Of a stretch of 64,000 nucleotides of DNA, positions 4,620 to 52,160 are shown one piece after another; positions within the stretch are counted from its first letter, which is position 1, and each line of letters opens with the position of its first letter. A program made the translations under genes and the position numbers. The DNA comes from Ostreococcus lucimarinus (lineage: Eukaryota): assembly GCA_000092065.1 (NCBI GenBank), contig CP000586.1; one strand, 5' to 3'. Under the pieces are notes generated by a model. It was given only the letters and a program-made list of their open reading frames with translations. It was not told where the DNA came from and did no database searches.

Positions 4620-5897
4620 ATGGACCTGGACGCCGCGTTCGATGACGATCAAACGCGCGCGCTCGCGGAGCTCGAAAACGCGCCGCTCGACGACGTCCTG
4701 GCGCGGGCGCGCATGCTCGAGCACGAGCTCCGCGTGCTGCGCGATGAGAGCAATCGCCTGAACCTGGAGTGCCAGGGCGAGCGAGAGCGGGTGAAGGACA
4801 ACGAGGAGAAGATCAAGCTGAATAAGCAGCTGCCGTACTTGGTGGGGAACGTGGTGGAACTCTTGGACTTGGCGCCGGAGGAAGAGGAGCTGGAGGATCA
4901 AGCGACGGCGGACGTGGACGCGCAGCGACGAGGGAAGGCGGTGGTGCTGAAGACGACGACGAGGCAGACGATATTCTTGCCCGTGGTCGGGTTGGTGGAC
5001 GCGGAGACGCTGAAACCGGGGGACTTGGTGGGGGTGAATAAGGATTCGTATTTGATTTTGGACACGCTTCCGGCGGAGTACGATTCGCGAGTGAAGGCGA
5101 TGGAGGTGGACGAGAAGCCGACGGATGATTACACCGACATAGGGGGGCTTGAGAAACAAATTCGGGAGATGCGGGAAGCCATCGTGTTGCCGATGACGCA
5201 CGCGGCCAAGTTCGCGAAACTCGGTATTCGACCGCCGAAAGGGGTGCTTTTGTACGGACCGCCCGGGACGGGAAAGACGTTGATCGCGCGAGCGTGCGCG
5301 GCGCAGACGAACGCGGCGTATCTCAAGCTCGCGGGGCCGCTGTTGGTGCAAATGTTCATCGGCGACGGCGCAAAGTTGGTGCGAGACGCGTTCGCGTTGG
5401 CCAAGGAAAAGTCGCCAGCCATCATCTTCATCGATGAGATCGACGCCATCGGGACCAAGCGTTTCGATTCCGACACCAACGGTGATCGCGAAGTCCAGCG
5501 CACGATGTTAGAGCTCCTTAATCAGCTCGATGGGTTCTCGAGCGACGATAGAATCAAAATCATCGCCGCCACGAACCGAGCCGATATTCTCGATCCCGCG
5601 CTCATGCGCTCCGGTCGACTCGACCGTAAGATCGAGTTCCCTCATCCGAACGAAGATGCTCGAGCGCAAATCATGAAGATCCACTCCCGCAAGATGAACG
5701 TTAACCCCGAGGTGAACTTTGACGAGCTCGCTCGCGGCACCGAAGATTTCAACGGCGCCCAGCTCAAAGCCGTGTGCGTCGAAGCCGGCATGCTCGCCCT
5801 CCGTCGCGACGGCACGGAGATCACGCACGAAGATTTTAACGAGGGTATCATCCAAGTTCAGGCTAAGAAGAAGGCTGACTTGTTTTACTACGCCTAG
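4620..5897 (+). CDS. RPT1: 26S proteasome regulatory subunit 7 (Rpt1/PSMC2)
   Basis: Full-length AAA ATPase with GPPGTGKT Walker A. The C-terminus ...[15 protein letters not shown] matches the Rpt1/PSMC2 tail. Confidence 0.9.
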
Positions 5898-31117: not shown

Positions 31118-33109
31118 TCACGCGGCGAGGAGCTCGGTGCGCTCGGCGCAACGGCGCCAGACGTCGGCGGCGACGCCGGATTCGGCGTTCGGGGACGTCG
31201 CGCGCGCGAGTCTGGCCGTGGATAGTAAAGGTTTGATCGGCACCGACGGGCGCTTCAAGAAATCCACCGCTTCGCGCGCGGCGGATTCGTCCTTGAAGGC
31301 GCCGGTGGAGAGCAACACGCTCGACGCTTGCTCGAGCGAAAGCGCGGGAATTTCCACGGCGGCGTCGATGACGCCGCCGGCGCCGAGACCGAGACGTTTG
31401 AGCGTCTTTGGTGACGACGTCGTGAGCATCACGAGCAAGTGTCGGCCTGGAGGTGGCTTACGCTGTAGCAAAGCGCTGAGCGTCGCGAGCGCCTTCGGGT
31501 GCGCGACGTTGAGAGACTCGCTTCCATCCGCCGGGGCGACGCCGACGAGCGTCTCCACGGAGTCGACGACCAAGCAACTCAGCGTAGACTTGAGCGCATC
31601 TTCGAACGAGGCCTTGAGCGCGGCGGTGAGCACGTCGTCTGTGGAGCCGGAACCACCCGGCGCGTTGGCGATGACGGTGTCCGGCTTGACTACTTTGACG
31701 TACGGGAACTCGCTCGCCAACGCCACCGTGGCGGCGAGCGCGGTCTTCCCGCTCCCCGTGGGTCCACTGACCATGCACGTCATGTGATCGGTCGCGCCGT
31801 CCTGTAACGCCTTGACGAACGACTTCAATTGATTTTCTGCGACGACGTGCTCCGATTGCGATTCGAGCGTAACGTACCCATCCGGGCGCATCGCTTCGAG
31901 TGTCGCGGCGTCGGCGCCCATCGCCGGCGGCACTTCCTCGAGTGCGTTCAGGAAGTCCTCCATGAGCACTACCGGCGCTTCCGCGCTCTCTGCTTGGTCG
32001 AATTCCGCGCTCTTCTTAATGTGTCTCGTCAACGAATACGACGTTGCCGCGGTGACGAGGCCCTTCAACTCGGCGCCGCTGTAGTTGACCGTGCTCTTCG
32101 CCAATTCTTCCAAGTTCACGCAAGGTCCGAGCAAGCCTTCGCTAGCCATAGAGTCGGTGTGAATTTTCAAAATTTGCTGTCGACCGGTGGCGTCCGGCAA
32201 GCCGACTTCGACTTGCAACTCTAAACGACCCGGGCGCAAAAGCGCGGGATCGAGCAAGTCTCTTCGGTTGGTGATACCCACGATCAAAATGTTATTCAGC
32301 GCGTGCATACCGTCGAGCTTGGTCAAAAGCTGATTCACGACGTTGTCGTGCACGATGCTCGCCGTCTCCCCTCCCGTGCCTCTCGCCTTCATCACCGCGT
32401 CGATTTCGTCGAAGACGATGATGTGCAACTTGCTCTTGTCGCCCCTCAACTTTGCCTCCTTCTCCGCATCTTCGAACAACATCCGCACGTTCTCCTCGCT
32501 TTGACCGACAAACTTTTGCAAAATTTCCGGTCCATTCACGATCTTCGGCTTGTGCGCGTTCAGCATGTTCCCCAACTGTCTCGCCACGAGCGTCTTCCCC
32601 GTCCCCGGCGGCCCGTACAGCAGCACCCCTCGCACGTGTTGCAATTTCAACCTTCTCGCGATGTTCGCGTCCACCATCCTCGACGCGAACACTCGTCTGA
32701 ATATATTCGCAAACTCCTTATCCAATCCTCCCACGCCGTGTTCGACGAACGAGCTTCCATCTCGCATCATTCGCGCCAGGTGCGCCTGCGAGCTGTGCTT
32801 TTCGCTCTCGTCTTGCTCGGGCACCGTGTTCGCGTTCCCAGCCGCCGGTCCCGTCTTCGCCAGCGTCGGCGTGATCCCGGGCGGCGCCGCGCCGCGTATC
32901 GCGCTCTTCGGTTTCGGTTTTTCAAACTTTCGCGGCGTCGGCGCGTCCGTCGTCGCGTCGACTTCGAAATCTTCCGCGCGCCACTGCACGAGGCGCTTTT
33001 GCGTCGCCAGCGCCGTCGTCGCCGCGCCGTCGACGTCGCGTCGCGCGGCGGTGCGCTGAGGCGCGCGAGCGCGCGCGAGCGCGCGCGCGAGGTCACGCGC
33101 GCGATGCAT
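31118..33109 (-). CDS. N-ethylmaleimide-sensitive factor (NSF/Sec18)-like AAA+ ATPase, D1+D2 only (no N-domain)
   Basis: The D1 linker GGLDKEFANIFRRVFASR is present, and D1 follows ([45 protein letters not shown]...FDEIDA...LLRPGRLE) with very high similarity to NSF. A degenerate D2 (GPTGSGKTALAA) is present. The approximately 140 aa N-terminus is unrelated to the NSF N-domain and is Arg/Ala-rich. Confidence 0.8.
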   Translation of the reverse strand: MHRARDLARALARARAPQRTAARRDVDGAATTALATQKRLVQWRAEDFEVDATTDAPTPRKFEKPKPKSAIRGAAPPGITPTLAKTGPAAGNANTVPEQDESEKHSSQAHLARMMRDGSSFVEHGVGGLDKEFANIFRRVFASRMVDANIARRLKLQHVRGVLLYGPPGTGKTLVARQLGNMLNAHKPKIVNGPEILQKFVGQSEENVRMLFEDAEKEAKLRGDKSKLHIIVFDEIDAVMKARGTGGETASIVHDNVVNQLLTKLDGMHALNNILIVGITNRRDLLDPALLRPGRLELQVEVGLPDATGRQQILKIHTDSMASEGLLGPCVNLEELAKSTVNYSGAELKGLVTAATSYSLTRHIKKSAEFDQAESAEAPVVLMEDFLNALEEVPPAMGADAATLEAMRPDGYVTLESQSEHVVAENQLKSFVKALQDGATDHMTCMVSGPTGSGKTALAATVALASEFPYVKVVKPDTVIANAPGGSGSTDDVLTAALKASFEDALKSTLSCLVVDSVETLVGVAPADGSESLNVAHPKALATLSALLQRKPPPGRHLLVMLTTSSPKTLKRLGLGAGGVIDAAVEIPALSLEQASSVLLSTGAFKDESAAREAVDFLKRPSVPIKPLLSTARLARATSPNAESGVAADVWRRCAERTELLAA

Positions 33110-33365
33110 CGTCGCTCTCGCGTCGCTCTCGCGTCGGCGTCGGGGCGCGCGCGGCGCGATGACGACGCAGGCTCCCTCGGGACGCTTTTCGGCGCGATGA
33201 CGTCGATTCGGATGACGCGACGACGAACAAAGGCGGGCTGGGATTGAAAGAAGAATGGCTGGCTAAGACGCGCTCGCGGCAGATCGAACGAGGCGCGCGC
33301 GAGCGCGCGAGTGAGCGCTCGCGGCGCCGCGCGCGCGCGCGACGACGACGACGCGCGTCGGGGGA

Positions 33366-34466
33366 TTAACGGTGGCCGAAGGCGTCGTCGCCGTCCAAAC
33401 CGAAGGCGCGCTTGGCGGCTTCGTACGTCGTCCAACAGATGGCGGCGGCTGGGATGTGGAAGAGCACGCGCGCGCTCATGCCGCGAGTGAGGGCGAGCGC
33501 GCCTTCGTCGCGAACGATGGCGCGCGCGACGTCCATCGGGCTGGCGGAACGCACGGCGGCGCTTCGCGCGCGTTGCGCGGCGAGCTCTTGCGGACAAATC
33601 TTGGGCGCGCCTCGCGCCGTGCACACGCTGTTGTACGTCGTTTCCACCGTCTTGGCGACGTCGCAATCGAGTAAAACACATTGCGTTTGCATGCGAGTCT
33701 TGACGACGTCCATGGGCGTCGTCGCCGCCGCCGCTAGACCCCCGGCGACGCCCCCGGCGGCGAATTGCACGGCGAACCCCTCCTTCTCCGCCTCGCTCGC
33801 CTTGAACAGCGCCGTCTTCGCGCTTTCGTACGCCGCGAAGTGGATCGCCGTGAAAGGGACATTCATCGCTAACGTCGTGGGGTAACTTCTATAAAACGCC
33901 CGCACGCCTTCGTTCCGAAACGTCTTCGCCACGCAATCCAGCGCCCCCTTGTACGGCGAATCCGAGATTTGCAGTCGTTGCTTCACCGTATCCACGGGGT
34001 TTTGCAACCCATCCGCGAGCACCGTCGCGCACACTCCCGCGAGCGCGTGCGCGACGGGGGCGTGTTCGTTCACGTTCCCACCCCCGAACGCCACCTTGCA
34101 CTTTTCGTACGTCGCGAAGTACACCGCGTGCGCCGGCCCCGCGCCCAACCCCGCGGCGGACACCCCTCGATACAGCGACCGCACCGCGTTCGCCGCGTTC
34201 GCCGCGGACGCGCGCGCCGTGAGCGTCCCGATCGCTTGCGCGTACGACGTCCCGCTCGCCGCCACCTGCAGGCGCGTTTTAATCGTATCCACCGGGAACA
34301 TCGCCGTGTGCTCGACGGCGCCCGCGAGCGCGCCCGAAGCCATGTGCGCGTAAAACGCCGTCTCCGCGGGCGAATGCGCGACGCACGCGCCGTCGACGGA
34401 CGCGCGCGCCGTCGTCGCGCTCGACGACGCCCGCGCGGCGCGCTCGAGCGCGTCCGAGGGCGTCAT
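33366..34466 (-). CDS. mitochondrial carrier family protein, mitoferrin (Mrs3/4)-like
   Basis: Three carrier repeats with PVDTIKTRLQ, PVDTVKQRLQ and PMDVVKTRMQTQ; the HMxAG...MFPVD start is typical of mitoferrins. The ORF track extends to 35534, but that part is antisense to the ABHD17 gene. The start is set at ATG 34466 (MTPSDALE...). Confidence 0.75.
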   Translation of the reverse strand: MTPSDALERAARASSSATTARASVDGACVAHSPAETAFYAHMASGALAGAVEHTAMFPVDTIKTRLQVAASGTSYAQAIGTLTARASAANAANAVRSLYRGVSAAGLGAGPAHAVYFATYEKCKVAFGGGNVNEHAPVAHALAGVCATVLADGLQNPVDTVKQRLQISDSPYKGALDCVAKTFRNEGVRAFYRSYPTTLAMNVPFTAIHFAAYESAKTALFKASEAEKEGFAVQFAAGGVAGGLAAAATTPMDVVKTRMQTQCVLLDCDVAKTVETTYNSVCTARGAPKICPQELAAQRARSAAVRSASPMDVARAIVRDEGALALTRGMSARVLFHIPAAAICWTTYEAAKRAFGLDGDDAFGHR

Positions 34467-34886
34467 GCGGCGCGATAACGCGTCGTCTCGATCGTCGTGA
34501 CGGCGATCGCGTTCGAGCGCCGACGTCGCCGCGGTCTCGTCGTCGACGGCGCGCGCGGTGCGGCGCGAGGCCGGGCGGTGCGGCGCGCGTCGATGGCGCG
34601 CGTCGGGCGCGGTTTCGTCGCGCGCGCGCGTCGCGACGCGTCGATGAGTGGCGTCGGCGAGTAAACCCTCGAGTTTTCGTCGCGCGCGCGTCAAAAAACG
34701 TCGCGACGCGACGCGCGCGGCGCGCGAGCGACGCCGCGGCGCGGTGAAACGGGCGACGCGAACGCGGCGCGCGAACACGCGCGCGAACGCGCGATTCGGG
34801 CGGCGAAGCGCGGCGAAAAGCGCGCGCGAAGACGCTCGATTTGAACTCGAGCTCGAGCGGTTGGACCGGACGCGGTCGGAGCGACG

Positions 34887-35942
34887 ATGCCGACGCAGTG
34901 CGTGAGCACGGCGGTGATTGGGACGGCGTTTTGCGTGAAACGATGCTCGAGCGAGCGTCTGGCGCGAGATTTGGCGTTTTTCCCGCCGGAACCGCCGAGC
35001 TACGCGCTCGGAGAGCGAGAGGCGAGCGACGACGGGGACGGCGAGCGCGCGGGGACGAGCGATAGTGGAGAGCTCAGAGCGATCGCGAACGAGGAACACG
35101 TGCCGGCGACGTACGCGGCAGCGTTTCAACGCGTGTTGGACGATTTTCGCGTGGATTTGGTGACGACGGCGAGAGGGAACGAGGTGGTGGCGATGACGTG
35201 CGAAGCGCCGCCGACGAGGATATCGGCGGCGAGCGAGGACGACGCTCGAGCGATGCAAGACGGCGCGAACCTGACGTTGATTTACTCGCACGGCAATGCG
35301 GTTGATGCGGGGGAGGTGGCGCCGTTCGCGCGGAAGTTGTCGCAGCAATTGAATTGTCGAGTGGTGACGTACGATTACTCGGGATACGGGCAGAGTCGCG
35401 GCGAGCCGAGCGTGGCTGATACGTACGCGGACATCGATGCCGTCGTCGCGCACGTCATCGAACGCTTCGGAGTGTCGCGCGAGGAAATTATTTTGCTCGG
35501 ACAGTCCATTGGAAGCGGGCCGACGTGTTTTCACGCGGGCAAGCGCGAAAACGCGGGATTCGGCGCGGTCGTTTTGGTTTCTCCGCTTCTAAGTGCCTTG
35601 AACGTCGTGAGCTCGCCGCAAGCGTGGTGCACGCCGGCCAAGGTGTTCAGAAAGATGGACGTGTACAAGAATTATCAAGTCGTGAAGAACATCCAGTGTC
35701 CGATTCTGTTGATTCACGGCGATCAAGACAACGTCGTACACGTGTCTCACGGCGAGACGCTTTGGGAAACCATTCGCAAGAGCGCGAAAACGAACGAATC
35801 GCTTCTCGAACCGTACTGGATTCGAGGCGCCGGCCACGATGATACGTACGATCGTAATCCAGCCGAATTCATTCGAAGATTGCGCGAGGTGTGCGCGCTC
35901 GTACGCGAGAATTGGTACCGCCGCGTCGAAACGGCGCCGTGA
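34887..35942 (+). CDS. alpha/beta-hydrolase, ABHD17 (FAM108)-like with Cys-rich N-terminus
   Basis: The N-terminus CVKRCSSERLARDLAFFPPEPPSYAL resembles the ABHD17 palmitoylated N-terminus (CCPPCP...LAFLPPEPTY). The nucleophile elbow GQSIGSG and a catalytic His region (GAGHDDT) are present. Confidence 0.7.
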   Translation: MPTQCVSTAVIGTAFCVKRCSSERLARDLAFFPPEPPSYALGEREASDDGDGERAGTSDSGELRAIANEEHVPATYAAAFQRVLDDFRVDLVTTARGNEVVAMTCEAPPTRISAASEDDARAMQDGANLTLIYSHGNAVDAGEVAPFARKLSQQLNCRVVTYDYSGYGQSRGEPSVADTYADIDAVVAHVIERFGVSREEIILLGQSIGSGPTCFHAGKRENAGFGAVVLVSPLLSALNVVSSPQAWCTPAKVFRKMDVYKNYQVVKNIQCPILLIHGDQDNVVHVSHGETLWETIRKSAKTNESLLEPYWIRGAGHDDTYDRNPAEFIRRLREVCALVRENWYRRVETAP

Positions 35943-44900: not shown

Positions 44901-47900
44901 GCGAGCTTCGTCAATCGAAGCGGGTTGCGATTGAGTATCGATAGTTTCGGGATCACGAGCGTGCGTGGAGTGAGCGTGAGCTTTAACAAGCCCGGCACGG
45001 CGCTGCGTAGGGTGCAGATTGCGGAGATTGCGTACGTGGGGAACGCGTCGACCATCGTGACGTGGTTGTTGAATTTCGCGTTGCGCAAGGCGAGCGGGAA
45101 GCATTTACGGGATGATTTGCCGCGCGTGGGTGAAAAGAATGGTAAAACCAGAAGTAAAAGTGATGATGGGTTCGCGGAGATGACGCCTCGTGGTAACGAT
45201 AGTCCGTCATCGGATGGAACGCCGGCGAGCGGACGAAGACGGTTCATACGCTTTGGCGTCGGATCGCTCAAGGCGGCGTTCGTGGTGTCGGGCGTAGAAA
45301 TTACGACGCGGAGTAAAGCCGACATAAATACGGAGGATGGGTTGCAAAAGCAGTCGTCTGATTTAGGTCGCGCAAAAATGACGAACACTAAAAAGAAGGC
45401 GATGACGCGCGGCAAGTGGAGATTGATGAAGGGCATCGCGTCCTTTGTCGACATCACGGTCGTATCGCTGACGGTGCGCGAAGAAGATGATGATGACGTC
45501 GACATGTTGTTTTGTGATAAACTCACGTTTGAAGCGTCTGGCAAGGCCGGAGCTTCGCTGAAATTCCTCATCACGGCACGTATGCTGCGAGGCAAGGATG
45601 GTTGGAGCATGACAGACACCAACGTGAACCTCGTCGCGGAGTTTGATTCCGAGACGAAAACTATCGTACCTGTGCACGCGGGATTGAGTGGTTCGACCTT
45701 GTCTCTCGTGAAGCGTGTTGGCGAGCGAGCGAAGAAGATCGAGACGAAAACAGATTTGGCGCCGATTACCGTCAAACAACAGCAAGGTCCGCACAAGGCT
45801 GTGAGGGGTCTACTCAAAGTGCCGAGGAAATGCAAGATAGAATTTAAACGCGTCGTGATGGAGAATAAGAACCAGGAAGCACCGTTGACTGGCGTGATGA
45901 CGCATATGCAATTCTCGGTCGAGAGAGTGAGCGCGTCCAAAAAGGGATTTCGTCTCTTTCGAAAGCAACAGCAAGTCGTCTCGCCGTTTGCCTCCACGGC
46001 GTTCGAGGCGGACGCGTGGGCAGAGGTGAATATGTCCGTGGCGGATGCAAAATTAGTGCATGGAAAGCATCAGACATTAGCTCTCATCAACGCGCCGAGT
46101 GCCTCGGTATTCTTGTCGCTTTCAGAGAAAGCACTCGGCGACGGCGGCAAATTGCCCGCCACCGCAACGTTTACGGTGGATTCGTGCGATTTTAGGCACC
46201 ATGCCGATGCGGCAGATTTAGTCGCTGCGTTAAAGGCGCAGAAAACGAAATCAAGAAACGGCTCCACTAAGTCGACGAACACAAAAAAGAACTCGGCGCC
46301 GTGGGACGTCGTCGATGCGCAGATGATGTGCAAAACGTCGCTATGCGCGAGAATGTACGACGAGCACGGGGCAACATCGTGTCAGTTTCTCACCGAGCAG
46401 ATTCGTGGTCGATATGGAAATTTAGTCGATGAAGGGACGTGTATGCTAGTTAGTTCGAGCGCGTCAGACAAGCGCGGCGTGTGCACGATGTCACGCGTAC
46501 AAGTGACGGTTCCCGGTTACCACCCCGTCGTGCAGATTGAAGCCATCAGCGTTGCGCTATCCGAAGCTGCCGGAAACGCGGTTGAGTTGTCGGAAACTAC
46601 CATCGATTTGAACATGAACGAAGCAGGTGAACTCGCAAAGAAGATTGATGCCGTCGCGAAGCGCGCCAAGGCAACCATGGCGAGCGCAAAAGGCGATTCG
46701 TCTGACAAGGCGACGTCTTCAAATAAGGTGAAGAAATCTACACGCGTCATCTTGGTCGACACAGCGATGCGTGCTCGATGCACGATGACGCCTTACTCGA
46801 CGTTCGGTGAGATACCGCAAAACTCGCGCGGCGATGAGCCTGTAGAGTGCGCGCTCGACATAAGTTGTCCGCTCGCAGAGATGTCGCAGCCGGAGGCAAA
46901 CTTAACGAGAATGGCGGCGGGTGGTTTCACAGTCTCTATGTACGACACCATTCAAAGACCCGCCAAAGCCGAAGAGGCGAAGAAAGATTCGCGGTGGGTC
47001 GGACGAGTCAATTACGAAGAAGTCGCGGTAGAGAACAACCGCGTGATGCTAGTCGGAAGTCTCGATGTTGAGTACAAACAAGGCGCCAACAAGCGCGCGG
47101 CAGTATCCGTGGAAGGCGTCGAATTTGATTGGGAACCGGATGCGCATTTTCTCGCACTAGAAATTTCAAACCTGGCAAAGGCTGCAAAGCCAGCAAAGAT
47201 GTCGACTGACGGTACGCAAAACGCCTCGAAGGATCAAACAAAATTGGATCTTTCGTTTGACGTGCGCAAAGTCAGCGGCTCGTTCTTTGTCACGCCGGGC
47301 GCGTGCGCGCAAGTATCATTTGGACTTATGGACGCGCGCCCACTCGAAAAAACGTGCTGCGTGAGAGATGTGACTTTTGGTATGAACGGATACACGATAA
47401 CGGAGTTAGAATTGATCTCCGTAACTCAAGACGAGTGCGAACGCACGTTGCCTCATGTCGCAGCGATCACACACGAAGACGCCGAAGACATCGCCAGGCG
47501 CCGCAAGTTTCAAATTGTGGTTGAGAAGGCAAAGCTCATGCTTCCCGCAAACTTAGACCTCGGCGACGCCATGGTAGCCATGATTATAGGCGAAGCGGTA
47601 TTCTCCGACGTCGTGAAAACGACTGGGAAGCGCGCAAAGAAGGAGCGAATTTCGTTGGCTGCCAATTTACCCGCCTGCGCCGAATCGTCTCCGTCAAAAC
47701 CGGCGACTGAAATCAATGTCAAGGTCAGCAGTATCGAAATTGAAGTCGAAGACTCGAATGATTTGGAGCGTTTTATGCGTGCAAAGCAAGCTGCATTGGG
47801 ATCTTGCATCGCGGCCGCGGAGTTTACGTCTTCCACTGAAGAGGCGATGCGAAGCATCACCACGACGTATCTCCAGCATAAGGAATTCTTAGCAAACGGC

Positions 47901-50900
47901 GGTGGCTCCGCGTTGCACATGGATATAGGCAGCGTCACCTCTACGGCAGTGTGGGGAGGTGGTAAAGGCGATGGTGATGAGCTCACAGCGAAAGCAGGCG
48001 CGCACGTACGTCGTGTGGATGCTCCGTATAGCGATTCTGTGTCTTTGCAGATGCAAAACGTTTTGACGATGCACACAAGCGTAACCGAAATGCGCGTCTG
48101 CGTGGCGGATTTGACCGCACGTCCTATTTTCATGTGTAGTGAAGCCACGATCGCAGGGACATTTGTGCAGGCTAGACAATACGCCCCGCGCATATTGACG
48201 GGACAAGTTGCCCTCCCTGTCGGACGAAGACGATGGGCGAAGACAAACGGACCCGACACGCCTTCGCGACCGACGGCGATGTGGTACACAGATGCGACTT
48301 TTGACATCAAAGAAGCTGATATATTTGTGGCGACGTGCATTGAGCCGTATTTGTTCAATGTGTCGCGAGAGCTCACGACGAGACTCGTCCTTCCACGCCT
48401 GCACAAGCACATTCCAGGAGGCGGAGGTGGACGTCCGCCGACGAAGGAATACGATCGAAACAATCCCAGACCGCCGAGCATGCCCTGGTGGGATATTTTG
48501 AGAAGTCAGTGGCGCGGATTAATGCGTATAACGATGATTCAGTCCGGTGCGAAGGTGGATAGTCAAGGACAGATTGAGCATCTCGGCGCGCACGGGGGAG
48601 ACTCGTTTGCGAGCGAGCTAGAGATTTTCGCCGACATGTGGGAGTTCGACATGAAGCCGCGCAACGTGGTCATTCGTAGCGCGAACTTCACGATATCAAG
48701 AATTCAAGATGATGAAGAGTGTACCGAAGCTTCGACGCCACGCGCGGATGAACCATCGCCGAAGCATAAGTTGGTCATCTTCCCGGTCATGTGCGTCAAG
48801 GCAGATTACGAATTCAAAGCCCTCCTCGATGGCGGCGATGGTCATCGTACGCACTACAGACACGACTCAACGACTGGAAAGGAGCTTTTCTCCAGAGATT
48901 TGACGCGCTCAAGTGCTTGTTTTGTGAATCTCGATGTCGATCTGGCGTCCATGGAAGAGTTCGTCACGAAAATGGTCAACGCCGCGACCATGGATCGCTT
49001 CGTCGAATACGTGAGAAATCTTACCACTGACGTGCCATCGTTCGAACACCAGGGCCACTATTCGAATCCGACCATAGCGCTGACACCAGATGACGTTGAG
49101 TTCATGAAACAATGGGAACATGGGATGAAGAAGCCAATGGTCGCGCTGCGGTCGATCTGGAACTTGCGACCGTGGGGCGCCCCGCGACGGGTAAAACACC
49201 CAGAATCGATAAGTTTGGTTGACTTGTTCGCAAGCATCGACACTGTCATCACCTCGAGCGTCATTCATGTGGTGAACGCTTCGAGCGACGAGACAGCTAA
49301 TGCGTACGGGGCGTGTTTCTGTCTCAAATCGGTGCATTGCGTCGCGAAAAAAGCGCCTCGGACCAAGGTGGAATTCACCCTGCGAGCAGATTCGTCGCAA
49401 TTCCACGTGCCTGAGCGTGACGGCAGTCTCGAACGTAAGGGATCGAGTCCACGTCGCCTCGCTAATCTTCGCGCTGGATCTATTACCAACAGACTGAACT
49501 TTGCAGAGCTCGACGACGTCGTCAAAGAGATGTTGCAAGGAAGCGCCAAGAGCCCGTCACAGGCAGATGATGGATCGGCTTCGCGCCCGACGTCCACGGA
49601 TCCAACGTTGGTATTAGACACGAAAAGACTCGAGATTACTCAGCGCAATGAAGATTCAGTGGCCAGCCAGGGCATTCAGATCGAAGTTGACGCTCCTCGG
49701 ATCTTAATTGAAGCCGAACAGCGGAACGCTATCCTCGGCTGGATCAACGCCATTTGGACGGCGGCGCAGACGGAAAGACGCGAGCCGACTTGGACCGAGC
49801 TCAATCGCATCCTAAAGTCAGCGGATAAACTGTCGGGAGTGAGTCGACGTCGCCGTGAATTAGACGATATCATGGGCGATGGACCAAGTTTGCACGCGCT
49901 AAGTGCGGAAGAGACGCTCGAAAAGAATTACGAATCACCGAAACGTGCGACGGAAGCTGTTGTGCTCTTCGTCATTCAAATCACCGCTCCGCAAATCAAT
50001 TTTAAGGGCAAAGATGCCGCTGGTCGAATGTTACTCGCAGCCGAAGGCGGACTTGTGGTTGGTAGACGAATGGACGACGGCGGTTCGACGGGTCGTCGTC
50101 TCGTCACGGTATCTTTACAACAAGTTCAAGCGTACGTGGCGCCGACGAACGTCGACTTAAACGCCGGTGTGCAGTGGTTGCGGGAAAATCATTCTTCGGT
50201 GGATGGCATACATACTTCTTTGGTTCGTGACGACGTATTCGAAAGTGGCGACGGTCGCAAAGAATCAGGTTCGCTCTTGCGACGCATTTTCGCTCCAGGT
50301 TCGATGGTTTTTGAGCACGCAAACGCCGTCACAGCGACGCAAAGTCGCATAACCGACGCCGAGTTGTACGCGTACAACGAGCCGACGGAGGCTGATGTTC
50401 AGGCTTTCGGTAAGCGCACGGCGAGCGAGACCAAAGGGGAAGCGGTGAGCCAATTTTCAATGCGTTCTCCCGAAATCGTCGCGGAAATGAATTCGAGCCA
50501 GTACGTTGTTTTGATCGACGTCATGGCGAGCCTATTCTTGACACCAGCGGCTTTGGAGCGTCCTCGACCGAGCTTTCAGGCTTCAAAGGTTTTGATGAGT
50601 CGTGATCGAACGTTGAGTGACACGGTTGCGCTTGAATCTTCAGCTATCGTCGCGAAACCGATGATGAAGTTGATGGCCGCTCGCTGGGCGGTGGAGAGTA
50701 TGGAGAAGAATTATCGCCGCGCGGTCGCTCTGGCGCCGAGCGAAAAGCAGAAAGTCCTTCGTGAAATCGATGTCCTTTGGTCCGCTGCGCAGAAGGCTGA
50801 GTTGCGCGTCCTCGCTGCGGTGCATCAAGCCGAAGAGAACGATAGGCTCTATCGGCGGCACTCCGCGATTCGATTAAGTCTCGAAATCGAACACGCGGCT

Positions 50901-52160
50901 TGGACTTTGTGGCAGGGTGGGAGTCCTTTCATCTCCGCTCAGCTCTCGCGACTGTCGCTTTCGCGCGAACGCCAGGTTGACTCTTCTGGGATGCTGCGAT
51001 TTAAGCTGCACGGTTTAAGTATGGTGTCGCTCGATGAAGGCTGCGTCGATCAGATGTTTTCTCGCTGGATTCCACCGGGAAGCGTGCACGAATCACGCGC
51101 GCGTAACGACGCGCCGTTGATTGACTTTTTCTCCATCCGCGCGGGATCGGCGCCGGAGAAACCGGTATACGACCATTTGGAGCTGAGTGTGCAACCGTTC
51201 GAGGTGGACATCAAGCACTCGCAGTACAAAATGATTTACCAATATCTCTTTCCAATGACGAAGTCCAGCGATCACGACGCGTTTGAGAATGTTTACAGGC
51301 GTCCGGCGCTCGCCAAGAATGCGGAGATGTCGCCGCGCGAGAGCTTGATTCGGGCGCAATCTATAAACGCAAAGGGTGTGCATCTGACGCCGCTTGAATT
51401 GCCGTCGGAGATGTCGGCGTCAAAGCATCGGCGACGATGGCGTTGGAACGAAGAAAAAGATGAAGTTCTCGAAGAGTTTGAAGACGTGCATGCGAAAAAG
51501 GGCGAAAAGGGTATTGATCACAAAACCGTACTTTTGCGCTATTTCAGAATTCATCCTCTGCACATGGAGATGACGTACGAAGGCAAATCACGCGGGTTCA
51601 GAGACTTGCAACTCGGCGTCGACGCCTTTGCGTACGAAAACTTTTCCGGTCGCTGGCGTGACTTGACGTCAGAGCTTAAAAACCACATCGTATGGAGCGT
51701 GTTGAAATCGCTCGTCGGCTTTCGAGGAAAGTTTGTCGAGAGCAAGATCGATGACACGCAGTCCATCTTCATGCGCGTCGCGGAGCGGTTGAAGAAAACT
51801 GCCAACTTGCTCCCGAAGCCCAAACCAGAAACTTCCAGCGGCGCCGAGCACGATTCCGAGTCGGAGACGGCCGTCGACGACCGAATTAAGTCGCAGACGT
51901 CCCAGGCCGAACTCTTTCGCACCGGATGGAACGACGTCGACGTCGATATCGAAGTACCGCGCGGCGATGGTCGAAAAGCGCCGTCGCGACGCTTCTCGAG
52001 GAAGAAGAAGAAACCTCGCCGCATCCGCCCAATCAAAAACACCAAGAAATTCCTCGCCACGGTCGGCATTGGCTCCTACACGCCGAGCGGTGCCGAGGGA
52101 ACGCCTTCTTTGCGCAGCCGCACCGAAGTCATCGACGCGTGGTCCACCCCAAACTTGTAA
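44901..52160 (+). CDS. SABRE/KIP/BLTP2 (Fmp27/Hobbit)-like bridge lipid-transfer protein, exon 2 (about 2,419 aa)
   Basis: The giant ORF has TTG as its track start at 44925. The frame is open back to an ACAG| acceptor at 44900, with an ACTGAC branch 23 nt upstream. The N-terminal region aligns with plant SABRE (ASVEFRVGGWNCVRDVVVKF ~ LSIDSFGITSVRGVSVSF; RGKWMVLANMARFLSVSVTDLVV ~ RGKWRLMKGIASFVDITVVSLTV). The size and architecture fit BLTP2. Confidence 0.85.
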   Translation, partial: ASFVNRSGLRLSIDSFGITSVRGVSVSFNKPGTALRRVQIAEIAYVGNASTIVTWLLNFALRKASGKHLRDDLPRVGEKNGKTRSKSDDGFAEMTPRGNDSPSSDGTPASGRRRFIRFGVGSLKAAFVVSGVEITTRSKADINTEDGLQKQSSDLGRAKMTNTKKKAMTRGKWRLMKGIASFVDITVVSLTVREEDDDDVDMLFCDKLTFEASGKAGASLKFLITARMLRGKDGWSMTDTNVNLVAEFDSETKTIVPVHAGLSGSTLSLVKRVGERAKKIETKTDLAPITVKQQQGPHKAVRGLLKVPRKCKIEFKRVVMENKNQEAPLTGVMTHMQFSVERVSASKKGFRLFRKQQQVVSPFASTAFEADAWAEVNMSVADAKLVHGKHQTLALINAPSASVFLSLSEKALGDGGKLPATATFTVDSCDFRHHADAADLVAALKAQKTKSRNGSTKSTNTKKNSAPWDVVDAQMMCKTSLCARMYDEHGATSCQFLTEQIRGRYGNLVDEGTCMLVSSSASDKRGVCTMSRVQVTVPGYHPVVQIEAISVALSEAAGNAVELSETTIDLNMNEAGELAKKIDAVAKRAKATMASAKGDSSDKATSSNKVKKSTRVILVDTAMRARCTMTPYSTFGEIPQNSRGDEPVECALDISCPLAEMSQPEANLTRMAAGGFTVSMYDTIQRPAKAEEAKKDSRWVGRVNYEEVAVENNRVMLVGSLDVEYKQGANKRAAVSVEGVEFDWEPDAHFLALEISNLAKAAKPAKMSTDGTQNASKDQTKLDLSFDVRKVSGSFFVTPGACAQVSFGLMDARPLEKTCCVRDVTFGMNGYTITELELISVTQDECERTLPHVAAITHEDAEDIARRRKFQIVVEKAKLMLPANLDLGDAMVAMIIGEAVFSDVVKTTGKRAKKERISLAANLPACAESSPSKPATEINVKVSSIEIEVEDSNDLERFMRAKQAALGSCIAAAEFTSSTEEAMRSITTTYLQHKEFLANGGGSALHMDIGSVTSTAVWGGGKGDGDELTAKAGAHVRRVDAPYSDSVSLQMQNVLTMHTSVTEMRVCVADLTARPIFMCSEATIAGTFVQARQYAPRILTGQVALPVGRRRWAKTNGPDTPSRPTAMWYTDATFDIKEADIFVATCIEPYLFNVSRELTTRLVLPRLHKHIPGGGGGRPPTKEYDRNNPRPPSMPWWDILRSQWRGLMRITMIQSGAKVDSQGQIEHLGAHGGDSFASELEIFADMWEFDMKPRNVVIRSANFTISRIQDDEECTEASTPRADEPSPKHKLVIFPVMCVKADYEFKALLDGGDGHRTHYRHDSTTGKELFSRDLTRSSACFVNLDVDLASMEEFVTKMVNAATMDRFVEYVRNLTTDVPSFEHQGHYSNPTIALTPDDVEFMKQWEHGMKKPMVALRSIWNLRPWGAPRRVKHPESISLVDLFASIDTVITSSVIHVVNASSDETANAYGACFCLKSVHCVAKKAPRTKVEFTLRADSSQFHVPERDGSLERKGSSPRRLANLRAGSITNRLNFAELDDVVKEMLQGSAKSPSQADDGSASRPTSTDPTLVLDTKRLEITQRNEDSVASQGIQIEVDAPRILIEAEQRNAILGWINAIWTAAQTERREPTWTELNRILKSADKLSGVSRRRRELDDIMGDGPSLHALSAEETLEKNYESPKRATEAVVLFVIQITAPQINFKGKDAAGRMLLAAEGGLVVGRRMDDGGSTGRRLVTVSLQQVQAYVAPTNVDLNAGVQWLRENHSSVDGIHTSLVRDDVFESGDGRKESGSLLRRIFAPGSMVFEHANAVTATQSRITDAELYAYNEPTEADVQAFGKRTASETKGEAVSQFSMRSPEIVAEMNSSQYVVLIDVMASLFLTPAALERPRPSFQASKVLMSRDRTLSDTVALESSAIVAKPMMKLMAARWAVESMEKNYRRAVALAPSEKQKVLREIDVLWSAAQKAELRVLAAVHQAEENDRLYRRHSAIRLSLEIEHAAWTLWQGGSPFISAQLSRLSLSRERQVDSSGMLRFKLHGLSMVSLDEGCVDQMFSRWIPPGSVHESRARNDAPLIDFFSIRAGSAPEKPVYDHLELSVQPFEVDIKHSQYKMIYQYLFPMTKSSDHDAFENVYRRPALAKNAEMSPRESLIRAQSINAKGVHLTPLELPSEMSASKHRRRWRWNEEKDEVLEEFEDVHAKKGEKGIDHKTVLLRYFRIHPLHMEMTYEGKSRGFRDLQLGVDAFAYENFSGRWRDLTSELKNHIVWSVLKSLVGFRGKFVESKIDDTQSIFMRVAERLKKTANLLPKPKPETSSGAEHDSESETAVDDRIKSQTSQAELFRTGWNDVDVDIEVPRGDGRKAPSRRFSRKKKKPRRIRPIKNTKKFLATVGIGSYTPSGAEGTPSLRSRTEVIDAWSTPNL

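What the first reader, a model, noticed from the sequence alone, without database searches (positions are those of the whole stretch)
31118..33109. NSF-like AAA+ protein with D1 and D2 but no N-domain, replaced by an Arg/Ala-rich leader
From GGLDKEFANIFRRVFASR onward the protein is NSF at ortholog-level similarity through D1 and D2. The approximately 205-aa NSF N-domain, which binds alpha-SNAP and SNAREs, is missing. Only 256 bp separate this ORF's start from the stop codon of the next gene, so a missed 600-nt N-domain exon cannot fit here. The 140-aa replacement N-terminus (MHRARDLARALARARAPQRTAARRD...) looks like an organellar targeting sequence. This is either an N-domain-less NSF paralogue, possibly organelle-directed, or the only NSF of the organism has an unusual architecture. 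Both would be notable.
Basis: partly seen in the sequence, partly recalled or inferred. Interest (0 to 1): 0.6.

Follow-up and report, generated by a model that had tools for sequence, protein, structure and literature searches.

The report
NSF paralogue without its N-domain
Besides its normal vesicle-fusion ATPase (NSF), this tiny marine green alga has a second, conserved NSF-like motor in which the adaptor-binding N-domain is replaced by a disordered arm that begins like an organelle-import signal, so it probably does a different, still unknown job.

Summary
Window 31118-33109 (-) is one uninterrupted 663-aa ORF of Ostreococcus lucimarinus CCE9901. Residues ~114-663 are NSF-type D1+D2. Residues 1-113 show no N-domain similarity by Pfam, HMM, profile-profile comparison or AlphaFold2 (pLDDT <50). 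It is a paralogue, not the organism's only NSF. A full-length 719-aa NSF lies on another chromosome-scale contig of an assembly 99.85% identical to the window, and O. tauri has a named 755-aa NSF that includes the N-domain.

N-less orthologues sit in conserved microsynteny in Ostreococcus, Bathycoccus-like and Micromonas genomes, and transcript-derived ORFs have the same architecture. The family forms its own clade (98% NJ bootstrap) and does not group with the Mamiellales canonical NSFs. "Ortholog-level" similarity is overstated: D1 is 59% and D2 34% identical to the alga's own NSF.

D1 ATPase and pore-loop motifs are invariant in the family. The D2 P-loop is degenerate in some Micromonas. 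The N-terminal arm has a basic, acid-poor presequence-like start (~40 aa) followed by three conserved short motifs.

Best reading: a SNAP-independent hexameric unfoldase, probably imported into an organelle (mitochondrion slightly favoured). The function has not been tested. This is a new variant of a known kind. Its existence was tabulated in 2016, but I found no description of the architecture.

The parts
31118..33109 (-). Complete single-exon ORF of the N-domain-less NSF paralogue (663 aa; stop codon 31118-31120)
   Evidence: The exact protein is found on 647 blocks of public assemblies. aa 114-663 are identical to XP_001418564.1 of O. lucimarinus CCE9901.
32990..33109 (-). aa 1-40: presequence-like N-terminus (MHRARDLARALARARAPQRTAARR...). 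Basic, Ala-rich, predicted amphipathic helix aa 2-14.
   Evidence: In the first 30 aa, R+K is 4-10 (2 in one lineage, P0007) and D+E is 0-3 across the 20 N-less proteins examined, against R+K 1-3 and D+E 2-3 in six of seven canonical NSFs. The sequence is not conserved but its character is. AF2 predicts a helix at aa 2-14.
32981..32995 (-). aa 39-43, RLVQW: start of the conserved part. R-x-[VI] lies just before the first conserved block and may be a processing site.
   Evidence: R-x-[VI]-Q-W in 20/34 Ostreococcus-type sequences. R-x-I-[NT]-TKSP in 84/84 Micromonas-type sequences. Reading it as a cleavage site is inference.
32771..32989 (-). aa 41-113: disordered arm that replaces the N-domain
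   Evidence: pLDDT <50. No Pfam hit. No N-domain similarity.
32906..32923 (-). Conserved short motif EKPKPK (aa 63-68)
   Evidence: Found in 142/143 classified N-less sequences of three genera.
32816..32851 (-). Conserved short motif GPAAGNANTVPE (aa 87-98)
   Evidence: G87, G91 and N94 are invariant in alignment A1. A motif-like match occurs in 143/143 classified sequences.
32768..32791 (-). SQAHLARM (aa 107-114): conserved helix leading into the N-D1 linker
   Evidence: Q108, H110 and L111 are invariant. AF2 predicts a helix at aa 101-116.
31925..32770 (-). aa 114-395: N-D1 linker (GVGGLDKEF) and D1 AAA+ domain. The D1/D2 boundary is approximate.
   Evidence: Aligned to NSF from residue 212. 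Pfam AAA at aa 162-303 plus AAA_lid_3 at aa 331-366.
32591..32614 (-). D1 Walker A, GPPGTGKT (aa 166-173)
   Evidence: Identical in 175/176 N-less sequences.
32495..32515 (-). D1 pore loop KFVGQSE (aa 199-205). Phe200 corresponds to NSF Tyr294.
   Evidence: [KR]FVGQSE in 170/176 sequences. Alignment to NSF KYVGESE.
32399..32413 (-). D1 Walker B, FDEID (aa 233-237)
   Evidence: 173/176 sequences.
32219..32236 (-). D1 arginine-finger region RPGRLE (aa 292-297)
   Evidence: R292, P293, G294, R295, L296 and E297 are invariant in A1.
31121..31924 (-). aa 396-663: D2 AAA+ domain, fast-evolving
   Evidence: Aligned to NSF D2 up to residue 716. 34% identical to the alga's own canonical D2, and 23-42% identical among N-less genera.
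31742..31765 (-). D2 P-loop GPTGSGKT (aa 449-456). Intact here.
   Evidence: The Lys is replaced in about 53/176 family members, all Micromonas subclades.
33110..33365 (.). 256-bp intergenic spacer to the upstream gene. Too short for a 600-nt N-domain exon.
33366..34466 (-). Context: upstream same-strand SLC25 (mitoferrin-like) carrier gene. This neighbour is conserved in three genera.
   Evidence: Pfam Mito_carr, E 4.8e-66. Synteny.

Best explanation
This is a second, functional member of the NSF lineage of double-ring AAA+ ATPases. It is conserved in Mamiellales green picoalgae (Ostreococcus, Bathycoccus, Micromonas). It has lost the SNAP/SNARE-binding N-domain and gained a disordered N-terminal arm.

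Shown by the data:
- It coexists with a canonical full-length NSF.
- All D1 catalytic and substrate-threading motifs are kept.
- D2 is NSF-type but evolves fast.
- The arm has a basic, acid-poor presequence-like start followed by three short motifs conserved across genera.

Inferred:
- The protein is made as a precursor and imported into an organelle, with the mitochondrion slightly favoured over the plastid.
- The first ~40 aa are removed after import.
- It assembles into a hexamer through D2.
- It uses ATP hydrolysis in D1 and pore-loop Phe200 to pull apart or unfold a substrate.
- It finds that substrate or an adaptor through the conserved motifs of the flexible arm rather than through SNAPs.

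If so, it is not a SNARE-recycling enzyme of the secretory pathway. It would be an NSF-derived unfoldase or disassemblase with a new client.
For: Paralogy and architecture: (D1+D2 present, no N-domain). (a canonical NSF in the same genus, and in an assembly 99.85% identical to the window).

Real and expressed: an uninterrupted ORF. Transcript-derived ORFs have the same architecture. There are hundreds of metagenomic copies.

Orthology across genera: the block a/b-hydrolase | SLC25 carrier | N-less NSF is conserved in microsynteny, with no N-domain DNA upstream. The clade is monophyletic at 98% NJ bootstrap. In a profile search of 1.84 billion representatives, only four clusters score above 800 bits, against at most 604 bits for canonical NSFs.

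Active motor: D1 Walker A in 175/176, Walker B in 173/176 and the aromatic pore loop in 170/176 sequences. Sensor and Arg-finger residues are invariant.

Arm: disordered. The EKPKPK, GPAGNxN..PE and QxHL motifs are conserved in nearly all classified members.

Presequence-like start: net-positive, acid-poor and Ala/Ser/Thr-rich in nearly all of the 20 N-less proteins examined, including two outside Mamiellales. Six of seven canonical NSF N-termini are different. R-x-[VI] precedes the first conserved block in Micromonas (84/84) and most Ostreococcus (20/34).

From established knowledge of NSF (not tested here): NSF without its N-domain still forms hexamers and hydrolyses ATP, but cannot bind SNAP-SNARE complexes.
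Against: No localisation predictor (TargetP, PredAlgo) or experiment was available, so targeting rests on composition alone. Green-algal plastid and mitochondrial presequences are hard to tell apart.

O. lucimarinus has Asp at position 6 and three acidic residues in the first 30. The R-x-[VI] motif is weak in Bathycoccus-type sequences (3/25) and absent in some Ostreococcus lineages.

No substrate or adaptor is known. As far as I know, no NSF-type activity has been described inside mitochondria or plastids.

The D2 P-loop lysine is lost in about 30% of family sequences, so NSF-like, ATP-dependent hexamerisation through D2 may not hold for all members.

The phylogeny is neighbour-joining only and has no Cdc48 outgroup. 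The deep position of the clade may be long-branch attraction.
Confidence: 0.6

Rival explanations
1. A cytosolic NSF isoform. The N-terminal arm is not a transit peptide. It recruits a different adaptor, or the motor acts directly on some SNARE or non-SNARE complexes in the endomembrane system, next to the canonical NSF.
For: D1 is clearly of NSF type and fully intact. The conserved linear motifs in the arm could be adaptor-binding sites. Targeting is inferred only from composition. Other eukaryotes are tabulated with two or three NSF genes (Kienle et al. 2016, Table S1).
Against: The N-terminal ~40 aa are poorly conserved in sequence. Even so, nearly all of the 20 N-less proteins examined keep a basic, acid-poor, hydroxylated composition there, which is typical of cleaved presequences and not of binding motifs. 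There is no hydrophobic signal peptide. The canonical NSF is retained and much more conserved.
Confidence: 0.22
2. A regulatory subunit that mixes into hexamers with canonical NSF and changes how many N-domains each ring carries.
For: The two share an NSF-type D1-D2 fold. Both genes are present in the same genomes.
Against: D2 is the oligomerisation domain in NSF. It is only 34% identical to the canonical D2 and diverges quickly between genera (23-42%), while canonical D2 is 64-75% conserved. That is not what a co-assembling interface would show. The presequence-like N-terminus points to a different compartment.
Confidence: 0.06
3. Gene-model artefact. A canonical N-domain is supplied by an unrecognised upstream exon or by trans-splicing.
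For: The reference annotation of this gene is itself wrong at the 5' end: the 550-aa model starts at Met114.
Against: The spacer to the upstream gene is 256 bp. No N-domain coding DNA exists in the 64-kb window or upstream of the Micromonas and Bathycoccus-type orthologues. Transcript-derived complete ORFs lack the N-domain. The arm carries conserved motifs in frame with D1 in three genera.
Confidence: 0.02
4. A decaying duplicate (pseudogene in the making) with no function of its own.
For: The branch is long, D2 evolves fast, and the D2 P-loop is lost in some lineages.
Against: The intact ORF is kept in syntenic position across three genera. D1 catalytic motifs are invariant in about 175 sequences. 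Arm motifs are conserved. Transcripts exist.
Confidence: 0.02

Closest known systems
NSF / Sec18 (vesicle-fusing ATPase)
   Same: Tandem D1-D2 AAA+ architecture. The best sequence and structure matches are NSF and Sec18. D1 Walker A/B, the aromatic pore loop and the Arg fingers are intact. D2 is NSF-type.
   Different: No N-domain. It is a separate clade from the canonical NSF kept in the same genomes. Identity to the alga's own NSF is only 59% in D1 and 34% in D2. It has a presequence-like N-terminus and a disordered arm with its own conserved motifs.
Engineered N-domain-deleted NSF (D1-D2 constructs; from the NSF literature, my own knowledge)
   Same: The same domain content, D1 plus D2.
   Different: The laboratory truncations are inactive in SNAP-SNARE binding and disassembly. 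The algal protein is a natural, conserved gene with a replacement arm, which implies a different way of finding its client.
SELMA sCdc48 of complex red plastids (discussed in Kienle et al. 2016, PMC5070193)
   Same: A precedent for a Cdc48-family double-ring ATPase paralogue redirected to an endosymbiotic organelle by an N-terminal targeting extension.
   Different: sCdc48 derives from Cdc48, keeps its N-domain and works in an ERAD-like import machine. Here the parent is NSF, the N-domain is gone, and localisation is only predicted.
Plant Spaf-like (SPATA5L1-like) proteins lacking the N-domain (Kienle et al. 2016)
   Same: Another Cdc48-family member that lost its N-domain in a plant lineage.
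   Different: It belongs to a different subfamily. The loss is described as absent in Mamiellales. It is not related to NSF.
Lineage-specific NSF duplicates (Drosophila, kinetoplastids, Naegleria, Ectocarpus, Paramecium; Table S1 of PMC5070193)
   Same: More than one NSF gene per genome. The same table lists O. tauri with two.
   Different: The paper's text does not mention domain loss or a changed N-terminus for any of them. I did not examine their sequences.

Membership tests
NSF/Sec18 (canonical vesicle-fusing ATPase) | Two tandem AAA+ domains of NSF type (D1 active, D2 NSF-like) | tested here: met
   Pfam finds AAA twice plus the lid domain. PDB phmmer ranks Sec18 and NSF first, aligned over aa 114-631. 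The top 50 Foldseek hits are all NSF or Sec18.
NSF/Sec18 (canonical vesicle-fusing ATPase) | D1 catalytic and threading residues: Walker A Lys, Walker B Asp-Glu, aromatic pore loop, Arg fingers | tested here: met
   [20 protein letters not shown] and RPGRLE are present here and nearly invariant in 176 family members.
NSF/Sec18 (canonical vesicle-fusing ATPase) | N-terminal two-subdomain N-domain (double-psi barrel plus alpha-beta roll) that binds SNAPs and SNAREs | tested here: not met
   No CDC48_N or CDC48_2 hit. The N-domain HMM and hhalign are negative. AF2 predicts disorder. No N-domain DNA in the window.
NSF/Sec18 (canonical vesicle-fusing ATPase) | Orthology: groups with canonical NSFs of related species, as the usual single-copy gene | tested here: not met
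   A separate canonical orthologue exists. The N-less clade is monophyletic (98%) and never groups with the Mamiellales canonical NSFs (0% bootstrap). It lacks 6 of 7-8 scorable Mamiellales-canonical signature residues.
NSF/Sec18 (canonical vesicle-fusing ATPase) | D2 nucleotide-binding P-loop that supports hexamer formation | tested here: inconclusive
   Intact in Ostreococcus (GPTGSGKT). The Lys is replaced in about 53/176 sequences, in Micromonas subclades.
NSF/Sec18 (canonical vesicle-fusing ATPase) | SNAP-dependent disassembly of SNARE complexes | not testable with these tools
   Needs biochemistry.
Cdc48/p97 | Closest similarity to Cdc48 in both rings, with a Cdc48-type N-domain | tested here: not met
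   Cdc48/p97/VAT score about 280-300 bits, against 410-420 bits for NSF/Sec18. Their best aligned stretch covers only the D1 region (query aa ~125-400). The NCBIfam CDC48 model scores 210 bits against a cutoff of 803. There is no N-domain.
Organelle-imported nuclear-encoded proteins (cleavable N-terminal presequence) | Basic, acid-poor, hydroxylated or Ala-rich N-terminus of variable sequence that precedes the conserved mature part | tested here: inconclusive
   The composition fits in nearly all of the 20 N-less proteins examined, and does not fit six of seven canonical NSFs. An R-x-[VI] motif precedes the conserved block in many. No dedicated predictor or experiment was available.

The most novel reading that the evidence does not exclude
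This would be the first NSF-lineage ATPase that works inside an endosymbiotic organelle, mitochondrion or plastid. It would be recruited to a non-SNARE (or organellar SNARE-like) client through the conserved linear motifs of its disordered arm. Related N-domain-less, presequence-bearing NSF-like proteins seen in other unidentified algae (P0547, P0514, P0521/P0522) would then be members of a wider, unrecognised family of organellar NSF-like proteins.
Probability: 0.4. Interest if true: 0.75.

Novelty: new variant of a known kind. Interest (0 to 1): 0.52.

Why it matters
NSF is regarded as an almost universal, mostly single-copy enzyme. Its N-domain is what couples it to SNAPs and SNAREs. A conserved natural NSF that has discarded this domain shows that the NSF motor can be re-used for another client. 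If it is imported into an organelle, it would add an unexpected unfoldase to mitochondrial or plastid biology in ecologically dominant picoalgae.

O. tauri and Micromonas can be transformed, so localisation and knock-down are feasible.

There is also a practical point. The reference annotation (XP_001418564.1) is truncated, and the name "vesicle-fusing ATPase" is likely to mislead pathway reconstructions.

Tried and rejected
- **Divergent N-domain.** I tested whether the N-terminus is a diverged N-domain. An HMM of 25 canonical N-domains with --max, hhalign, Pfam at E<=10 and AlphaFold2 were all negative.
- **N-domain exon nearby.** I looked for an N-domain exon in the window and upstream of the Micromonas and Bathycoccus-type orthologues with tblastn. 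There is none.
- **Wasted search.** One database search was lost on a 120-aa fragment of a canonical N-domain. It returned only two short proteins.
- **Naming organisms.** Cluster look-ups named only O. lucimarinus, O. mediterraneus, O. tauri and M. commoda. The taxa of P0547, P0514, P0521/P0522 and P0583 stay unknown. P0547 is on no contig on record. P0514 is on a 4.4-kb metagenome contig.
- **Literature.** Searches for an N-less or organellar NSF, and for the accession numbers, found nothing. The one exception is Table S1 of Kienle et al. 2016, which lists two NSFs for O. tauri without comment.
- **Viral origin.** The NSF homologues on IMG/VR contigs have N-domain-sized N-termini and only 33-43% identity. 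They are not the source of this family.
- **Signature residues.** These cannot date the duplication precisely. The N-less proteins keep the ancestral state at 6 sites where Mamiellales canonical NSFs are derived. They share the green-lineage state at 2 of only 3 informative sites.
- **Mitochondrion versus plastid.** I found no way to separate the two from sequence alone.
Full report
**What is there**

The window is Ostreococcus lucimarinus CCE9901. Residues 114-663 of the ORF at 31118-33109 (-) are identical to XP_001418564.1/A4RZF0, a 550-aa model that starts at an internal Met. The ORF is a single open frame of 663 aa starting with ATG.

Pfam finds two AAA domains and an AAA lid, and no CDC48_N or CDC48_2. 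Against the PDB, the best matches are Sec18 (E 7e-125) and NSF (E 1.5e-121). They align only from query residue 114/115 to NSF residue 212, that is, over D1 and D2. Cdc48/p97 scores clearly lower. Foldseek with the AlphaFold2 model returns only NSF/Sec18 D1-D2 chains at the top.

**The missing N-domain**

The first ~113 residues have no detectable relation to the NSF N-domain.
- An HMM built from 25 canonical N-domains and run without filters matches only the last ~10 linker residues.
- Profile-profile comparison gives 7% probability over 11 columns.
- Pfam on the N-terminus alone at E<=10 finds nothing.
- AlphaFold2 with a 19-sequence alignment gives pLDDT <50 for residues 15-130. Only a short helix at 2-14 and a helix at 101-116 lead into D1.

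The upstream gene on the same strand, an SLC25 carrier, ends 256 bp before the ATG. tblastn with three canonical N-domains finds nothing in the whole 64-kb window. The replaced region is nearer 113-126 aa than 140.

**Paralogue, not the only NSF**

A search with a canonical Mamiellales NSF returned seven Ostreococcus-type clusters of 716-751 aa. One of them contains O. tauri XP_022838457.1 (755 aa, "Vesicle-fusing ATPase"). That protein aligns to hamster NSF residues 8-720 in one stretch (659 bits), N-domain included.

The canonical 719-aa protein P0403 lies on a 956,834-bp contig of JGI assembly 3300050343. The exact 663-aa window protein lies on an 823,818-bp contig of the same assembly, and that locus is 99.85% identical to the window over 8 kb. 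I infer that O. lucimarinus has both genes.

The N-less protein is 59% (D1) and 34% (D2) identical to the canonical Ostreococcus NSF. Canonical NSFs are 78-88% (D1) and 51-75% (D2) identical among green lineages. "Ortholog-level similarity" is therefore an overstatement.

**A conserved family**

N-less relatives fall into three groups:
- Ostreococcus-type: 654-685 aa, 73-99% identical to the query.
- Micromonas-type: 747-890 aa, about 48% identical, including M. commoda XP_002500312.1.
- A low-GC group: about 735-766 aa. I call it Bathycoccus-type on composition and on its sequence relationships, not from a named record.

Transcript-derived ORFs have the same architecture: O. mediterraneus A0A7S0Z8H2 (677 aa) and an MMETSP "complete" ORF of 757 aa.

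The gene sits in the same microsyntenic block in all three groups, a/b-hydrolase | SLC25 carrier | N-less NSF. No N-domain coding DNA lies upstream in any of them.

A profile of the family was scored against 1.84 billion representative proteins. Four clusters exceed 800 bits, and then there is a drop to at most 604 bits for canonical NSFs.

In neighbour-joining trees of the D1-D2 core:
- The N-less clade is monophyletic (98% bootstrap).
- It never joins the Mamiellales canonical NSFs (0%).
- It attaches outside the green canonical NSFs on a long branch. With no outgroup and no ML method, that deep position may be an artefact.

Signature residues show that the N-less proteins lack most substitutions specific to Mamiellales canonical NSFs. 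They share two of only three informative green-lineage states. The duplication therefore predates the Ostreococcus-Bathycoccus-Micromonas split. It probably happened within the green lineage, but its age is open.

A 563-aa protein of unknown origin (P0547), also N-less and starting MARRF..., is sister to the clade (96%). Further N-domain-less NSF-like proteins of unknown taxa exist (P0514, P0521/P0522, P0583).

**Anatomy and likely mechanism**

D1 is under strong constraint. Counts in 176 family sequences are:
- GPPGTGKT: 175.
- FDEID: 173.
- An aromatic pore loop, [KR]FVGQSE: 170.

The sensor and arginine-finger residues are invariant in the 19-sequence alignment A1. An ATP-driven threading motor is therefore preserved.

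D2 evolves fast. It keeps its P-loop in Ostreococcus and has lost the lysine in about 30% of sequences, all Micromonas subclades.

The N-terminal arm has two parts. The first ~40 residues vary in sequence but are nearly always basic, acid-poor and rich in Ala, Ser and Thr. Six of seven canonical NSF N-termini are not like this. That is the behaviour of a cleavable organelle presequence.

The first conserved block begins right after an R-x-[VI] motif in all Micromonas and most Ostreococcus sequences. This resembles a mitochondrial processing site, but it is only a hint. The rest of the arm is disordered and carries three short motifs conserved across the genera: EKPKPK, GPAGNxN..PE and QxHL.

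From what is known of NSF, loss of the N-domain abolishes SNAP-SNARE binding but not hexamer formation or ATP hydrolysis. My best explanation is therefore a SNAP-independent hexameric unfoldase or disassemblase that finds its client through the arm motifs. It is probably imported into an organelle, with the mitochondrion slightly favoured over the plastid. The motor and the architecture are shown by the data. Localisation, processing, oligomeric state and client are inferred.

**Rivals**
- A cytosolic isoform with another adaptor remains possible (about 0.2).
- Mixed hexamers with canonical NSF are unlikely, given the divergent and fast-evolving D2.
- A missed exon is contradicted by synteny, transcripts and conservation.
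- A decaying duplicate is contradicted by the same evidence.

**Comparison with what is known**

The protein works like, and descends from, NSF/Sec18. It fails two defining features of the canonical family: the N-domain and orthology. So it should not be filed or named as the vesicle-fusing ATPase.

The nearest precedents are:
- Engineered N-deleted NSF, which has the same domains but is inactive on SNAREs.
- The plastid-directed sCdc48 of SELMA, an organelle-retargeted relative that keeps its N-domain.
- N-domain loss in plant Spaf-like proteins.

The last two are discussed by Kienle et al. 2016 (PMC5070193). That paper states that NSF is "mostly present as singleton". Its Table S1 lists two NSFs for O. 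tauri, with no remark on architecture. Other literature and accession searches found nothing.

**Verdict**

This is a real, conserved, expressed and previously uncharacterised variant of a well-known enzyme family. Interest is moderate. A specialist would find a natural N-less, presequence-bearing NSF notable, and it is easy to test. Function and localisation are still inferred.

Noticed in passing
window 31118-32770 versus 31118-33109 (-): The reference protein model XP_001418564.1/A4RZF0 (550 aa) starts at Met114 of the 663-aa ORF. It therefore omits the presequence-like start and all conserved arm motifs. Metagenome gene calls and orthologues support the 663-aa form.
   Followed up: yes
window 33366-35942; L036 1959-8427; L037 2157-7921: The gene order a/b-hydrolase (-) | SLC25 mitoferrin-like carrier (+) | N-less NSF (+) is conserved in Ostreococcus, a Bathycoccus-type contig and a Micromonas chromosome-scale contig. 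The steady adjacency to a mitochondrial iron-carrier gene may be chance or co-regulation.
   Followed up: partly
alignment A1 columns ~725-735 and ~930-980; proteins P0011, P0012, P0013, P0053, P0065: In Micromonas subclades the D2 P-loop lysine is replaced (GSGTS, GCGSS, GAGTS). Bathycoccus-type proteins carry a long acidic insertion in D2. D2 is much less constrained than D1 in this family.
   Followed up: partly
proteins P0547, P0514 (locus L026 417-2513), P0521/P0522, P0583: Other NSF-like D1-D2 proteins lack a recognisable N-domain, and several start like transit peptides. They occur in unidentified organisms. P0547 groups with the Mamiellales N-less clade (96% NJ bootstrap). P0583 sits near fungal Sec18 sequences. 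N-domain loss in NSF paralogues may be recurrent.
   Followed up: partly
L029 2419-4497 (+); L034 811-2556 (+): Contigs labelled as giant-virus MAGs in IMG/VR encode NSF homologues (692 and 581 aa) with N-domain-sized N-termini. This could be viral NSF genes or host contamination.
   Followed up: no
window 4620-5897 (+): A second AAA+ gene in the window is a proteasomal Rpt-type ATPase (AAA plus Prot_ATP_ID_OB_C). It is unrelated to the finding.
   Followed up: yes
window 44925-52160 (+): A very long ORF (2411 aa) matches the Hobbit/FMP27/BLTP2 bridge-like lipid-transfer protein family.
   Followed up: no
cluster of P0003: Several 366-367-aa proteins named as an SLC25 iron transporter are listed as members of the 90%-identity cluster of an N-less NSF. 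This is probably a clustering artefact from fused gene calls across the short spacer between the two neighbouring genes.
   Followed up: no
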